Source: a virus
Lineage: Duplodnaviria > Caudoviricetes
Length of the DNA stretch: 64,000 bases
Virus record (IMG/VR): IMGVR_UViG_3300017716_001697
Coordinates: 224,001 to 288,000 of that record
Direction: 5' to 3' (one strand)
In this document: in pieces, positions 28,763-54,985 of the stretch
How the letters are laid out: the number at the start of each line of letters is the position of its first letter
Numbering within the stretch: the first letter of the stretch is position 1
The notes under the pieces: model-generated
Databases searched by the model: none
What the model was told of the DNA's origin: nothing
Seen by the model: only the letters and a program-made list of their open reading frames with translations
Position numbers and translations under genes: made by a program

Positions 28763-30721
28763 AAAGCTATAAGATAGCAGTGCATGAGGATGAAGTAGTC
28801 GCGTTTATCAAAGAAACTGGTGCAACCTGCGACACAGCATGGGATGAACAAACCAGAACAACGAAACGATTCTTCGTGTTTGGTACTAATGGCATCCCAT
28901 ACTTCCTACACCACTTGACAACAGAAGAAGAACATGTAACAATGATACTAATGAAATACAAATCCATCCGTTATAGCAGACCTATGCACGGGATGCTGTA
29001 TTGGTGTAACGCGGGTGAGGAAATATGAAAGATCACTACCGTGTCTGGATTAATTTACACGATAAAAAGAAGTTTGAAGCACTGCTGCGTATCAACGGTA
29101 TCTACATTACATGCAGCCCTGATGCATACTTTAGATCTGAGTACGTACCAGTTTGTTATGATACACTAATGAGTGGAGAAGATGAACTAATGCTCCAACT
29201 CTCAATCGATTGTGTAATACTAAACAGGAAAGACGATGCTACAGATCTTCGAACTAAGGCATTAGAAAAAGTAAGAGCAATGGTATGAAAACTTATATCA
29301 TAGACTTTGGCGACCACACACTAGATCAATTCAATAGTATTGTGGAGCCATCACGCAGACTTAAGGATGAGAATACAGGCTGGGTAAGACGCTGGCGTGC
29401 AGTAAAGCTAACAGACGAAGAAGCCACAGTAGTGTGTCTCATCTTCAAACATATCAGAGTAAATGAAGGAGAAGGCGTCCAACTTCTCACCAAGCACTTT
29501 AGCGATCCAAAATGAACAATACACGCGAAATAGAAATAACAGTACAAACCGAAAGGTGTAACGAGCTTGCCGATGTATTGTCAACCCTGAGGCTGACATA
29601 CTATGCCTCAGATCAAGCAACCGGTACAATCACATCCACATTCAGTATCAGAGCAACCCCAGAAGACCTAGTATTGCTGAAACTTAGTATTAGCGATATA
29701 GTATTAACTGATGTATCACTTAGTATTAATGATGCAGGATATAAGGCAAGGATGACAGGCGAAGTGATAGCTCTCCGCCACAAGTATGTAGGTAAATGGC
29801 TGGGATTGAAACTGTGATAGATTGTCTTATATACTTAGATGAAACAACTGTGTCTCGCTTTAATGAACTTGTCGCACCATGTCACAGACATAAAACTTCG
29901 ATAAGCGATGTTCCACAATGGTATAGAGTTGTGCTGTATGACGAAGAAGCTACCGCAGTGTTTCTAGTATTCAAACACTTAGCAGCACAAAGAATGCCTC
30001 CATATTTCCGGGAAATGTTAGGGGATATCCATGAGTATTAAAATGCATAAGATATTTCTTGACCATAATTCCGCACAAGGATTCAATAATGTAGTGTGCG
30101 AAGAGCATCAAGTACACCACAACTTAATAGATTACTTCCCACACGGTGCCTGGTTTAATGTACTACTATCAGACGAGGAATTGACCATAATTACGCTAAA
30201 ATTCGAACCTAATCTCATTAATACATATAGACCCACCCAATAGCTCATCAATCATATTTGTGCTATAGTATTGTTATGAGTAAACTCCACTATTTGGCAT
30301 TCCTTAGTAATGATGAAATCCCCGAGTTCAACAAGATAGTATCCAACGAATCACAACTCACAATGTGCAGCCACGGCCTATCAGCTCAGTGGTTTTATAT
30401 CACACTATCACCCGAAGAATCGACCATAATTAAGCTAAAATTCAGATATGTAGAGCGAGACACACATCAACGCAATGTCACCGCTTATTCTGAATAAAGA
30501 GAACGAAAATGAATGATATTACAAAGAACTATAGTGTATTCATACATAGGAAAGATGTAGATAGATTCTATACTATAGTGAGTAACTTCGATCACAACAG
30601 CGGCCTAATGGAAACACTCTTCAATAAGCTACATGCAGGCTATCGCTTAAAAATGCATGATCATGAAACAATTATACTAAGACTTAGTATAGAAGACATA
30701 TCGATCACAGAATCCCACTAA
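28759..30721 (+). CDS. array A, eight small paralogues: 28759-29028, 29025-29288, 29285-29515, 29512-29817, 29814-30041, 30031-30243, 30276-30497, 30509-30721
   Basis: C-terminal motifs TTEEEHVTMILMKY, SGEDELMLQL, LTDEEATVVCLIF, TPEDLVLLKL, YDEEATAVFLVF, LSDEELTIITLKF, LSPEESTIIKLKF, HDHETIILRL. Confidence 0.8.
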
Positions 30722-31970
30722 GGAAAAATACACTGTGTACGAAACATGTACAGTAAAGAACCTTAGCATAATATTGCTTGAATAGTGAGAATGATAGCAT
30801 AGTATGCTATAGAAAAAGACTTAATTGGACGTAGCGGTTTAAAGGTTATTTGCAGAGGCCTCTCTCCAGGAAATAGAATGAAAAAGGGAAAGCCCCCATA
30901 GGTCTAAGATAGGAATCCTGTGTGAATTTCACGGTCAGATTTGGAAATCAGATTTGGAATCCTAGGTGCCCTTTTCAAATAGGAATCCTACGGGAGGTTT
31001 TGGCGGCAGATTCCTGCCTATGCGCCTAAAGGGCGGTCTAGGTGCCAATATGCGGCGCAATGCCCACATCAGTGCGCCGTGGCGTATGCGTATATGTGAA
31101 ATCCTTTCCACTTTAATTCACTTTGGCTTATGGTTATCGATTCGATGCCCTATAGCTTTTCACTGTGGAATCCTTATGTGCGCAATATTATGCTAAGATT
31201 TCCACGATTCGAAGCATAGAATCAAGATCTTGCACTGTGTGAATCTAAACTTTTCACTACGATCAAAGCTTTTCTTAGCATACTATGCTATGCATACCAC
31301 ATTGGAAACCTTAGTTAAACCACTAGACTGTGCTTATGCCAACAGTTATAATGGTAGGGCACGCTAGCGGGAGCAGAACAGTCACTGTAAAAGATTACAT
31401 ACAGTAAGGCCTGTACACCGGTCCGTCTCTGTTCGCCGCTAGCAACTTTATACTATAGTAGAGATCATGAACTTCTTTACTATACGTTTCTTTACTACAT
31501 AGAGTTTCTATGAATTTCACACTGTGGTTTTCTGTGAATTTCGATAAAGAGTTTCGGATTTCATAAGAATTTCACAGTGCGGATTTCGATCGGTTAGTAA
31601 GTGCTTACCAACATAGTGTGGTTTTCTTGCTACTGTGAGTTTCATGCAACGAAACGTGGAATCGGTTCCGCTTCGGTGTGGCGTATGGCCAACAGCGTTT
31701 GATCTGGTGGTTGGTGGCTTTCAACCTCGGAGGGCTGGTCTTGTGATCGTAGTACGGCCACGTGGGTTAATGCGAGGATTGTGCCCTAAGGTGTCTAAGG
31801 TATCGTTTAGCCTCGGCAGTAAAATCTTAGGTATCGTGCTCTTATCCGAGGTGGGCCGTAAGAGCATTGATTCTTATAGTGATTCTGTCTAACCTAAGCA
31901 CTAAGCCTCGCAAACGGTTCTTAAGACTCTGCAGACAGATTGCGAGGCTGTAGATATCGCTTTACTTTGA
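30722..31970. other. about 1.25-kb non-coding, repeat- and palindrome-rich junction (candidate terminus, origin or injection signal)
   Basis: No credible ORF; GGAATCCT x4 (30912, 30956, 30982, 31167); 16-bp inverted pair 30762-77/31182-97; palindrome ATAGCATAGTATGCTAT 30794-810 with complementary copy 31276-91. Confidence 0.6.
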
Positions 31971-33610: not shown

Positions 33611-33875
33611 ATAATGCTCGCTATCACGTTAATGATAGTTTGAGCTTAGTAGGGTCTAGTTCAGGTGTTGACGTTAGGTTCTGTATCTGACACGTTGATG
33701 CTGAGGTGGTTGGCCCTACCGGACACGCATGTTAAATCACCCCACTCCTAACTAGATTGCGGCTAGTAATACAGATGACATGCAATGCTGATAGGCAAGC
33801 TATCATAAATTTCTATTAATGGTTGCTCAATGATAGCTATGTGTTATAATACATACATCGCAACAAGGAGTACAT

Positions 33876-47540: not shown

Positions 47541-47735
47541 CTAGAGCCCGGTTGAATCTAAAAGACGCGACATACGCAGCATTTCCTGATTGTCTCGGGT
47601 GTTCAGGGCCCAGTTCAGCTCTGTGGCCTGCACGGTGTGCCCCATCTCGGATAGCTTCTCCCTGACCGCATGGCCCCACGCCGAGGATGGTAAATGCACA
47701 TGCGTATTGCCGTCGACTAAGTAAACTGTGACCAT
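47541..47735 (-). CDS. hypothetical protein, 64 aa
   Basis: Minus-strand RBS AACAGGAGGGTTTATG. Confidence 0.75.
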   Translation of the reverse strand: MVTVYLVDGNTHVHLPSSAWGHAVREKLSEMGHTVQATELNWALNTRDNQEMLRMSRLLDSTGL

Positions 47736-48217: not shown

Positions 48218-48523
48218 GATAAACTCCTTAGTGTGTTGCGGTAAGTGTATTGTACTGCGAAACAGTTCCAATGTCAACAACTTTTGCAACTTTATTTTGC
48301 TTTGTTGTTGATGTTGTAGTGTTCTGCATGTATTGATTATATGACGGAATTGTGCTCCAGTCAACAACTATTTCAACTGTTACATCTTGTTACATCTCCG
48401 ACCCTCTGTACAGTCTCGGACCTGTTAATCAGTGGCCTTGATCATGCCTTGCGAGGCTTAAAATAAAGGTAGACACAGGAACCGTTCTTCGTTATAATTA
48501 ATACATCGCAACAAGGAACTAAT

Positions 48524-49025: not shown

Positions 49026-49235
49026 ATGTCACAACCGACAACTATTGCACAATTCGCAGAAGCTTGCAAGACGCTAACAAGTGATGAAGTGTTTGAATTC
49101 TTCGAATTCGAAATCAGTGATGCACTTCGCGATGAGATCTATAGCATGTCTCGCACATCTAGTCACGAACCATGTCGTGATGCACTCGAACAAATCGGTA
49201 AGCAGTTCAACGTTCAAAGTTTAATTGATTATTGA
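49026..49235 (+). CDS. acidic small protein, tandem paralogue of 49299
   Basis: FA.ACK.LTSDE....FEF.IS..LRD.IY. Confidence 0.85.
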   Translation: MSQPTTIAQFAEACKTLTSDEVFEFFEFEISDALRDEIYSMSRTSSHEPCRDALEQIGKQFNVQSLIDY

Positions 49236-49298: not shown

Positions 49299-49499
49299 AT
49301 GCAAACTGTACAAGATTTCGCACTAGCTTGCAAGCATCTGACAAGCGATGAGATCTACGACTTGTTCGAGTTTGATATCTCGCAGGAGTTGCGTGACACA
49401 ATCTACGCAGAAGCCGAGATTGACAGTGCAGAACCTGTGCGTGACGCATTCAACAAGATTGGCGTGCGCTACAGTGTGCAAACGCTTGCAGATTATTGA
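49299..49499 (+). CDS. acidic small protein, tandem paralogue of 49026
   Basis: Same motif and duplicated cassette. Confidence 0.85.
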   Translation: MQTVQDFALACKHLTSDEIYDLFEFDISQELRDTIYAEAEIDSAEPVRDAFNKIGVRYSVQTLADY

Positions 49500-49838: not shown

Positions 49839-49884
49839 GATGTAACAGTGGTTGCATTAAGTTGAAATCACTGTTACAATAACT

Positions 49885-50242
49885 ACATAGCAAATTAACA
49901 AGGACACTTGTTTCTAATTCTACAGCTAGTTCCGCATCGTTTTGGGGCTGTTCAAATAATGAAAACTATGCAAGCAGGGTACTGCCGATAGTGTAGCACG
50001 TTACTGGTGCTGATGCTATCGAGAGTGCGCTGGAGTAGGTGAAGGCCTACTGTAACATCGGCCATAGAAGAGACCGTGTTACATTGACAAATCGTGGTCG
50101 CCAGCAAACTCTCCATGTAAGTGCTGTGCGCTTTGTGGGGCATGCGGATAGTGGAGAAAGCGAGTAAGGGCTGCATTAACTTTTGTCTGCCTGAGGACTA
50201 CGCTAAAGCCACCTAGCAAAAAGATCGGTGCCCCACTTTTTT
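49885..50242 (+). ncRNA. candidate early-promoter-driven structured ncRNA (about 350 nt)
   Basis: Cassette promoter (TACAAT 49875) with no ORF; nested helices; GTGGGGCA(50135-42)/TGCCCCAC(50229-36) then T6. Confidence 0.5.
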
Positions 50243-50254
50243 ATTGAGGATAAG

Positions 50255-50473
50255 ATGGCTACGTATTCTTGCAAATGCTGTAAAGAACCCTTTGAAGCAC
50301 GTGAGGCTGATCGCAAACGCGGCTGGGCAAAGTTCTGCAGCAAGTCCTGCAAAGCAAAGAAACAGGAAGCACGTACCGGGCAGTATAAGGCATACCTCGA
50401 ACGGAAAGATACCGACTTTGACGTCGATGCCTACCACGCCGAGGATCCTGGATGGGATGCCCACAAGTTTTAG
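50255..50473 (+). CDS. Zn-finger protein
   Basis: CKCC..PF.AR.AD.KRGW.KFCSKSCKA. Confidence 0.85.
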   Translation: MATYSCKCCKEPFEAREADRKRGWAKFCSKSCKAKKQEARTGQYKAYLERKDTDFDVDAYHAEDPGWDAHKF

Positions 50474-51923: not shown

Positions 51924-52244
51924 TTGTTGACAGTTGGCAGAATCCTGCTATAATTAACACATAGCAAGCAAACACACAAAGGAGTTAGTTATGTTACTAG
52001 TCAGAGCTTATAATGAGCATTGCGACAAGGCAGCAGCAGAAGGATTCAAGCCCTTGCCCCGGTCGCGCTTTCTGGATGTGTTGTGGGCAATCTTTAAAGC
52101 ACGCAACGCCTAGTAACAACAAGCCCAACGTGACAGGCCGATTGCACGTTGATCCTCAACTCTTAAACATTCTTAATTAGTCCCTTAGCGAGGTGGGGCA
52201 ATAATGCAATAAGTCAAGCATATATAGAAACACATTTATAAGAG

Positions 52245-52862: not shown

Positions 52863-52904
52863 AGGCAGTTTAACAGATATTAGCGGCTAAGGCCGCTTTT
52901 ATTT

Positions 52905-53330
52905 TGGCCATATAGTTCTCGCATAAGAGCGCGATCCTTCTTATAATCGTTGCCGAGAACTATAGCCTTAGGTGTCGCGATTCGCCGCCTAAAGAATCGC
53001 CTTAACCACAGATCCTCGGAGTTAGGGCACGCACCTAGCTGATAGCGTGCAACCTTGCCGAGGCTAATTTCATGCCACAGCCGTAGGTGTATTACACAGT
53101 GTTTATGAGCTAATTTTAGCAGGTTTAGGCAAAGGTTGCGACGATTCTTTAAGACAGATTCATTAAAGTTCTCGCAACTACTATACCGACGGCTAAGGTT
53201 GCGTGCAATAACTCCGAGACTATGTCGACAAAGGTGATGACAGATTACTCAGCGATCATACAAGCCTCGGCCAGGCGGATCAAGGCCACTGATGAGTAAG
53301 TCCACGAACCGCTGAGTGTAACAAGATGTA
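52905..53330. other. non-coding palindrome-rich element (structured RNA or DNA signal)
   Basis: 11-bp, 9-bp, 8-bp and 8-bp perfect inverted repeats; no ORF. Confidence 0.55.
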
Positions 53331-53413
53331 ACAGTCTAAATATCGCTTGCCCAATGCTTCATCCTGCCATATAATTACTACATAGCAACACAATAGTAAC
53401 GCAAAGGTACACT

Positions 53414-54824: not shown

Positions 54825-54985
54825 TGCTATAATAAACACATAGCAACAAGGAATACATCATGTTAGGCCACTACAAACAGCTTCTTGCACACGTTGCACG
54901 TTCACAACGCCAGCAATTCAAGCCGCTTACACAGACGCAGTTCATTAAGATTGCAGTCAAGATTGTAACAGCTTAGGAGCACAAC

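What the first reader, a model, noticed from the sequence alone, without database searches (positions are those of the whole stretch)
49885..50242. A promoter cassette that drives a non-coding structured RNA instead of a protein
Seen: a standard cassette (TACAAT 49875, ACATAGCAA leader) is followed by about 350 nt with no credible ORF. Helices include CGATAG/CTATCG, AGCAC/GTGCT, GTAGG/CCTAC, TGTAACA/TGTTACA and TCTCCA(50110)/TGGAGA(50152). The last crosses GTGGGGCA(50135)/TGCCCCAC(50229), which is followed by T6. Inference: an early ncRNA with a pseudoknot or switch, such as a protein sponge, RNA antitoxin or anti-defence decoy, or a riboswitch-like leader for the Zn-finger gene at 50255.
Basis: partly seen in the sequence, partly recalled or inferred. 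Interest (0 to 1): 0.6.

Follow-up and report, generated by a model that had tools for sequence, protein, structure and literature searches.

The report
Modular pseudoknotted early jumbo-phage RNA
A giant uncultured phage uses one of its standard early promoters for what appears to be a roughly 355-base folded RNA instead of a protein gene; related phages keep its fold through matching base changes, it matches no catalogued RNA family, and its function and expression are untested.

Summary
In a 364,576-bp PA5oct/GAP32-type jumbo phage, window 49885-50242 follows an early promoter cassette and has no conserved ORF. It folds better than shuffles (z -3.0) and matches no Rfam family. Six distinct versions in relatives show three parts. 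A is a 5' module (49885-50026) with an H-type pseudoknot; with one divergent phage added, 12 of 34 pairs show compensatory changes. Next is an optional ~95-nt slot, empty or filled by three different folded inserts. B is a 3' domain (50135-50236) closed by a 9-bp stem plus T6. Flanking genes vary freely, so it is not a leader for the Zn-finger gene. In a more distant phage, A alone precedes a small ORF; a weakly supported B-like element follows a gene in another. Tests for tmRNA, rRNA mimicry, type III antitoxin, CsrA sponge, retron and peptide readings failed. Best guess: a stable, end-protected early RNA acting in trans as a protein decoy or scaffold (inferred). The scan noted this stretch before (e1-5374364) and, unchecked, similar RNAs in other jumbo phages.

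The parts
49841..49878 (+). Inverted repeat over the promoter; its left arm is the GATGTAACAG upstream motif seen before many early promoters of this phage group
   Evidence: the palindromic partner is seen in this window only
49852..49880 (+). Early sigma70-type promoter: weak -35 TTGCAT (49852), 17-bp spacer, extended -10 TGnTACAAT (49872-49880)
   Evidence: relatives carry TAGACA-17-TA(C/T)AAT at the same place
49885..49893 (+). Cassette leader ACATAGCAA; inferred transcription start near 49885
   Evidence: 18 plus-strand copies in the genome, clustered in the early region; start inferred, not mapped
49897..49912 (+). Module A, 5' hairpin (6 bp) that folds the cassette's leftover AAGGA ribosome site into a stem-loop
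   Evidence: 5-bp version in G001; GGA lost in L181, L227 and G001
49922..49971 (+). Module A, H-type pseudoknot: stem 1 49922-27/49946-51, stem 2 49934-43/49962-71, conserved loop letters AGUU and AAUG
   Evidence: 2 of 6 pairs in stem 1 and 5 of 10 in stem 2 change on both sides
49974..49985 (+). Module A, 4-bp hairpin with invariant GGUA loop
   Evidence: C-G to A-U change in G001
49986..50021 (+).
   Evidence: 4 pairs change on both sides, 100% of cells paired
50021..50119 (+). Optional slot: multi-helix insert closed by GAGAGT/ACTCTC and GCTGG/CCAGC, containing GTAGG/CCTAC and TGTAACA/TGTTACA
   Evidence: absent in L182, L183, L223, L227 and the contig; replaced by other folded sequences in L187 and L228; the three inserts fold at z -4.1, -3.7 and -3.7
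50120..50132 (+). Linker that can form a 5-bp hairpin or pair back with 49972-49983; fold unresolved
50135..50236 (+). Module B: 9-bp closing stem (50135-43/50228-36) enclosing a long interrupted hairpin with the motifs GCGAGUAAGG (50160), GAGGACUACGC (50193) and CUAGC (50213)
   Evidence: G-C to A-U changes at 50151/50212 (L183) and at 50153/50210, 50154/50209, 50160/50203 (L187); closing stem nearly invariant
50237..50242 (+). T6 run after the closing stem; inferred 3' end (atypical intrinsic terminator with a large structured loop)
   Evidence: T6-T7 in all full-length homologues; not called by the terminator scan
50255..50473 (+). Downstream 72-aa Cys-rich (Zn-finger-like) gene; a neighbour, not part of the RNA
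   Evidence: phrog_17137, E 2.5e-11; replaced or absent in relatives

Best explanation
It is a gene for a ~355-nt (260 nt in short forms) early non-coding RNA. Shown by comparison: the three-part fold, the 5' pseudoknot, the interchangeable middle slot, and independence from flanking genes. Inferred: host sigma70 RNA polymerase starts near 49885 right after infection and mostly stops at the T6 run. The 5' hairpin plus pseudoknot and the 3' closing stem protect both ends, so the RNA accumulates. It then acts in trans through its shape rather than by base pairing, with the invariant unpaired motifs (AGUU, AAUG, GGUA loop, the AA/GAGG internal loop, CUAGC) binding a host or phage protein as a decoy or scaffold during host takeover or counter-defence. 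The partner is not identified.
For: No conserved ORF. 12 of 34 pairs in module A change on both sides, 0 of 500 shuffles reach that, and slid controls give 0-1. Module B has compensatory changes. Three different inserts each fold at about z -4 behind the same closing stem. Module A is 89-92% identical to relatives where the neighbouring 66-aa gene is 80-86% identical in three of four comparisons. The unit is kept with five different upstream genes and three downstream contexts, including none. No convincing antisense target in its own genome. Precedent: PA5oct, whose capsid protein is 77% identical, has two ORF-less RNAs in its terminal-repeat region at up to about 5% of phage reads (PMC7318152).
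Against: No transcript evidence was available. Most double changes come from one divergent sequence (G001), so they are few independent events. In G001 module A precedes a 37-aa ORF with a Shine-Dalgarno site and is not followed by B, which fits a cis-acting leader equally well. Modules were not found in G004, G005, G011, PA5oct, GAP32, BF, XbC2, XacN1 or Phosso, so the RNA is not core to the group or has diverged beyond detection. No binding partner is conserved nearby.
Confidence: 0.5

Rival explanations
1. Emptied expression cassette working in cis. Module A is a portable 5' leader that stabilises or tunes translation of whatever follows, module B is a portable 3' trailer and terminator, and the slot between them once held a small gene. 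The RNA is kept to stabilise or meter read-through into downstream early genes.
For: In G001, A is followed by a Shine-Dalgarno site and a 37-aa ORF that weakly matches a small-peptide family of this region (E 0.037), with no unusual fold after it (z -0.5). In G002 a B-like element lies after an 85-aa gene and ends in T5. In window, L183, L187 and L228 the next gene starts 13-19 nt after the T run with no promoter of its own, so it depends on read-through. Cassette shuffling is known from T4-type PeSL elements (PMC2839356, PMC4122927).
Against: A and B are both kept, with compensatory changes, in forms with no gene in the slot and no gene directly downstream (L182, L223, L227). The slot holds folded RNA inserts, not ORF remnants. 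Module A occurs once per genome, not before many genes.
Confidence: 0.25
2. Ligand- or protein-sensing switch (riboswitch or attenuator). The pseudoknot senses a signal, and alternative pairing of the GGGUA segment controls termination or ribosome access for the downstream gene.
For: H-type pseudoknot with conserved loop letters and U-A pairs next to the junction, as in several riboswitch aptamers (own knowledge). The GGGUA segment can pair locally or with sequence 3' of the 14-bp hairpin in both L182 and G001, and in G001 that sequence lies just before the Shine-Dalgarno site.
Against: No Rfam riboswitch match even at E 10. The downstream gene is not conserved and is sometimes absent. In the window clade 95-200 nt of separate structure lie between aptamer and T run, and no conserved antiterminator was seen. 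In G001 the Shine-Dalgarno site is only partly paired in the computed ensemble (unpaired probabilities 0.19-0.85).
Confidence: 0.12
3. Catalytic RNA (new ribozyme or self-processing RNA) whose core is A plus B with variable peripheral domains.
For: A conserved core with dispensable, interchangeable peripheral domains is typical of large ribozymes (own knowledge). A 5-7-bp UCCGC/GCGGA pairing could link A and B in the near clade.
Against: That linking helix never varies in the near clade and its 5' arm is changed in G001. A occurs without B in G001, and a B-like element apparently without A in G002. Group I elements (P6, P9, terminal G, flanking exons) are absent. No Rfam ribozyme match.
Confidence: 0.06
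4. A small peptide explains the region (TTG ORF at 49907, 27 codons; GTG ORF 50121-50216, 31 codons; or tmRNA-tag-like frames).
For: AAGGA lies 3 nt before the TTG; two changes in relatives are synonymous in that frame; two frames resemble a tmRNA tag.
Against: The ribosome site is in a hairpin and too close. The TTG frame stops after 16 codons in L187 and L182 and is different in G001. The tag-like residues are not conserved. Indels and replacements follow helices rather than codons.
Confidence: 0.04

Closest known systems
Pseudomonas phage PA5oct ncRNA001 and ncRNA002 (MK797984 8263-8498 and 21951-22401; PMC7318152)
   Same: Related jumbo phage group (capsid 77% identical); ORF-less RNAs of 240-450 nt in a region of small hypothetical genes; ncRNA002 follows a similar -10 box and A/C-rich leader; function unknown.
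   Different: No sequence or model match, so an analogue, not a homologue. Those RNAs are shown by RNA-seq; this one is not.
ROOL, GOLLD and similar large ornate phage and bacterial RNAs (10.1101/2024.12.08.627333)
   Same: Structured, covarying, ORF-less RNAs of unknown function, some phage-associated.
   Different: No Rfam match; much shorter; modular, with a swappable slot; narrow distribution.
ToxI/ToxN type III antitoxin RNA and the pseudo-ToxI decoy of phage PhiTE (PMC3475682)
   Same: A phage-borne RNA with H-type pseudoknot fold that could neutralise a host protein by mimicry.
   Different: No tandem 34-60-nt repeats, a single larger pseudoknot, no conserved adjacent gene that could be the toxin.
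PeSL promoter/stem-loop cassettes of T4-type phages (PMC2839356, PMC4122927)
   Same: Repeated early promoter cassettes between which payloads are shuffled by recombination.
   Different: The payload here is a complex single-copy RNA, not a short promoter-terminator hairpin.

Membership tests
Any Rfam 15 family | Covariance-model match at gathering score | tested here: not met
   0 hits in window; only chance hits at E 2.7-7.9; none relevant for G001 or G002 loci
tmRNA or tmRNA fragment | tRNA-like ends with T-arm and a conserved tag frame | tested here: not met
   ARAGORN negative in window; tag-like frames not conserved; genome has a separate permuted tmRNA at 30533-30892, with no significant similarity
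Type III antitoxin or pseudo-ToxI | Tandem 34-60-nt pseudoknot repeats | tested here: not met
   longest self-match at offsets 25-69 is 6 nt
Type III antitoxin or pseudo-ToxI | Cognate toxin RNase gene downstream of the terminator | tested here: not met
   downstream gene variable or absent; the window's is a 72-aa Cys-rich protein
CsrB/RsmY-type sponge | Many conserved GGA motifs in hairpin loops | tested here: not met
   5 GGA in 358 nt; the one at the 5' hairpin loop is lost in L181, L227 and G001
rRNA-mimic RNA | Sequence or model similarity to a 16S/23S/5S segment | tested here: not met
   local alignments to E. coli rrnB equal shuffled controls; models give no significant hit; only E. 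coli rRNA was tested
Retron or DRT ncRNA | Adjacent reverse transcriptase | tested here: not met
   no PF00078 match in the genome
Y RNA (Yrl type) | Match to Yrl model, tRNA-like domain, adjacency to Ro60 gene | tested here: not met
   RF02565 (YrlB) negative; no Rfam hit on the region; no T-loop; no Ro60-sized gene adjacent
Group I intron | P4-P6 domain, P7 guanosine site, P9, terminal G, interrupted gene | tested here: not met
   read from sequence and alignments: no P6, no P9, ends in a T run, no exons
Riboswitch or attenuator | Conserved linkage to a downstream gene | tested here: not met
Riboswitch or attenuator | Ligand-dependent structural switch | not testable with these tools
   alternative pairings exist in computed folds but need probing
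Phage early ncRNA (PA5oct type) | Discrete abundant transcript in infected cells | not testable with these tools
   no confirmed RNA run is listed for this phage
Phage early ncRNA (PA5oct type) | Own early promoter, no ORF, conserved structure | tested here: met
Fremin 2023 viral candidate structured RNAs (PMC10690425) | At least three matching regions in IMG/VR, 29-151 nt model | not tested
   model files not searched; my IMG/VR scans found the modules in only one contig each besides this genome, so membership is unlikely but not excluded

The most novel reading that the evidence does not exclude
A new class of plug-in phage RNAs. The early promoter cassettes that shuffle small anti-host proteins also shuffle RNA domains (pseudoknot head A, variable slot, closed tail B). 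These can be deployed as mRNA leader, as mRNA trailer, or fused into a free multi-domain decoy whose slot varies like the hypervariable region of a counter-defence protein.
Probability: 0.2. Interest if true: 0.75.

Novelty: new variant of a known kind. Interest (0 to 1): 0.5.

Why it matters
Abundant early ncRNAs of jumbo phages are known from RNA-seq but have no structural models or functions. This one comes with a covariation-supported pseudoknot, natural deletion and replacement variants that define a 260-nt minimal core, and a natural split (module A alone before a small gene). That makes it directly testable by synthesis, probing, cryo-EM and pull-down without culturing the phage. If it is a decoy it would add an RNA-based counter-defence or takeover mechanism; if it is a portable stabilising leader it is a compact RNA part. 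Limits: narrow distribution, uncultured phage, host unknown, no expression data.

Tried and rejected
No RNA holder listed: the single run found is flagged as probably DNA and kept as contigs, so it says nothing on expression; it was used only as a related genome. BLAST against 50,697 phage records found no homologue of the window RNA, G001 module A or the G002 element. Exact-pattern scans of IMG/VR, JGI metagenomes and GTDB genomes gave chance hits, mostly in coding sequence, apart from re-finding G002. Loci of Zn-finger homologues carry no copy. The upstream 92-aa gene has no relative in IMG/VR. No paralogue in the own genome. A 24-nt resemblance of module B to the minus strand near 47670 lies inside a 64-aa ORF and lacks the partner stem, so I rejected it. 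Resemblances recalled from memory (tmRNA tag, 23S helix 7/kink-turn, sarcin-ricin loop, 5S loop E, group I P3/P7, group II domain 5, ToxI) either failed conservation or scored as chance against E. coli rRNA. The AA/GAGG internal loop may be kink-turn-like but lacks the standard tandem G-A pattern, so it is left open. The G002 B-like element is weak by formal score (E 0.52 per genome; missed by nhmmer). It rests on three ordered motif blocks, the closing stem plus T5, z -3.5 and its place in the early region, and the pattern used was designed after seeing it. Weak hits in G015, G009, BF and XbC2 (E 0.2-0.7) were not accepted. The targeted literature searches found no description of this RNA.

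Full report
Context. The window is 224001-288000 of a complete 364,576-bp virus record. Its major capsid protein is 77% identical to Pseudomonas phage PA5oct and about 66% to the GAP32/BF group. ARAGORN finds 46 genes (45 tRNA calls and a permuted tmRNA). The region around the finding is an array of small genes, each behind a sigma70-type promoter and the leader ACATAGCAA, as expected for an early region read by host polymerase.

Observation. The -35 is weak here (TTGCAT) but an extended -10 is present, and relatives have TAGACA. Of 27 cassettes matched genome-wide, this is the only one without an evident ATG ORF on inspection. The region folds at z -3.0, only slightly beyond the best background windows (z -2.7), so comparison was needed. 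There is no Rfam, ARAGORN or phage-BLAST match.

Homologues. A wastewater contig of a relative keeps 49871-50023 and 50120-50242 while skipping the upstream gene, the 96 nt between them, and the Zn-finger gene. Using neighbouring proteins as bait I recovered six distinct versions: window (identical in L178), L187, L183, L182/L223, L227 and L228 (missing only its first 9 nt), plus partial copies. Upstream genes are 92, 49, 70, 45 or 66 aa and mostly unrelated. Downstream lies the Zn-finger gene (window, L183), a 100-aa gene (L187, L228) or no gene before the next promoter (L182, L223, L227). The RNA unit is therefore independent of its neighbours. No reading frame is conserved.

Anatomy. Module A (49885-50026) has a 5' hairpin that buries the cassette's leftover ribosome site, an H-type pseudoknot, a 4-bp GGUA-loop hairpin and a 14-bp hairpin. 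A model built from the near clade found a divergent copy in phage G001 (E 4.6e-14; nhmmer E 1.8e-9) behind the same cassette. With it, 12 of 34 pairs change on both sides, including 2 in pseudoknot stem 1 and 5 in stem 2; 96.6% of cells pair, no shuffle reaches this, and slid controls give 0-1 such pairs. I had proposed the pseudoknot from near-clade sequences before G001 was found, so G001 is an independent check, although it supplies most of the double changes. The slot (50021-50119) is empty in four sources or holds one of three different 90-98-nt sequences that share the closing stem and each fold at z -3.7 to -4.1. Module B (50135-50236) is a 9-bp closing stem plus T run around an interrupted hairpin with four G-C to A-U changes across L183 and L187.

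Modules occur apart. In G001, A is followed by a Shine-Dalgarno site and a 37-aa ORF that weakly matches a small-peptide family of this region (E 0.037); the rest of that unit is not unusually folded, and B was not found in that 55%-complete record. In G002 a B-like element with the same inner motifs, a 15-bp closing stem and T5 follows an 85-aa early gene. Its formal score is weak, so I treat it as probable only. Neither module was detected in G004, G005, G011, G013, G014, PA5oct, GAP32, BF, XbC2, XacN1, Phosso or the Vibrio jumbo phage.

Mechanism. Shown: a conserved fold, no conserved protein product, its own promoter motif and a terminal stem plus T run. Inferred: an early, end-protected RNA that works through its shape. 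Conserved letters sit in loops and internal loops rather than in one long single-stranded seed, and no convincing antisense target exists in the phage genome; host targets could not be tested because the host is unknown. I therefore favour a protein-binding decoy or scaffold (0.5 for the whole statement; about 0.85 that a functional structured RNA is made). The main rival is a cis role as portable leader and trailer (0.25), prompted by G001 and by promoterless genes directly downstream in four variants. A switch (0.12), a ribozyme (0.06) and a peptide (0.04) are less likely.

Comparison with known systems. It works like the abundant ORF-less RNAs of PA5oct (up to about 5% of phage reads, PMC7318152) but is not homologous to them. 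It fails the defining tests for tmRNA, type III antitoxin, CsrB-type sponge, retron/DRT ncRNA, Y RNA, group I intron and, against E. coli rRNA, rRNA mimicry. Notes from this scan report other ncRNAs in this genome and pseudoknot leaders in other jumbo phages. They gave me the rRNA-mimic test and back the leader rival, but they are unchecked and I did not test homology to them beyond the BLAST searches.

Verdict. A real, apparently undescribed, modular structured RNA of one clade of uncultured jumbo phages. It is well supported structurally, unproven in expression and unknown in function. Interest 0.5.

Noticed in passing
G001:C1:127472 minus strand (in L305): Another early cassette drives an ORF-less RNA: a long perfect stem ending in CCACCA, enclosing a tRNA-type T-loop (GGTTCGAGTCC) and a second hairpin; looks like a rearranged tRNA or Y-RNA-like mimic. 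YrlB model negative.
   Followed up: partly
window 49839, 53325, and minus strand 48386-48396; many sites in G002 and G004: GATGTAACAG sits just upstream of the -35 box of many early promoters in this phage group, sometimes in tandem; a candidate activator or repressor site. At 49841-49878 it forms a palindrome across the promoter.
   Followed up: partly
window 51991-52113, 54860-54976; L184 759-899; L230 minus 1368-1481: A family of 37-46-aa early peptides sharing a Y..H...FKPL...F pattern; no annotation checked.
   Followed up: partly
window 49026-49235 and 49299-49499: Two tandem paralogous 66-69-aa acidic proteins, each with its own cassette; no PHROG match; 9 relatives in 5.8 billion proteins for the second.
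   Followed up: partly
window 47541-47735 minus strand: 64-aa ORF with a GGAGG ribosome site; 64-aa minus-strand genes are called at the matching place in several relatives, so this stretch may be coding, not part of a plus-strand ncRNA.
   Followed up: partly
window 52870-53350: A second long ORF-poor gap, with an apparent counterpart in relatives (L183 2000-2630, L224); candidate ncRNA.
   Followed up: no
G000:C1:30533-30892: Permuted (two-piece) tmRNA with tag ANADTFALVA, and a CTA-anticodon tRNA call at 33705-33780.
   Followed up: no
L224, L225, L226 at the 3' closing stem: Three separate assemblies break or have a gap at the same point in the 3' arm of module B, possibly a sequencing drop-out at a stable structure.
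   Followed up: no
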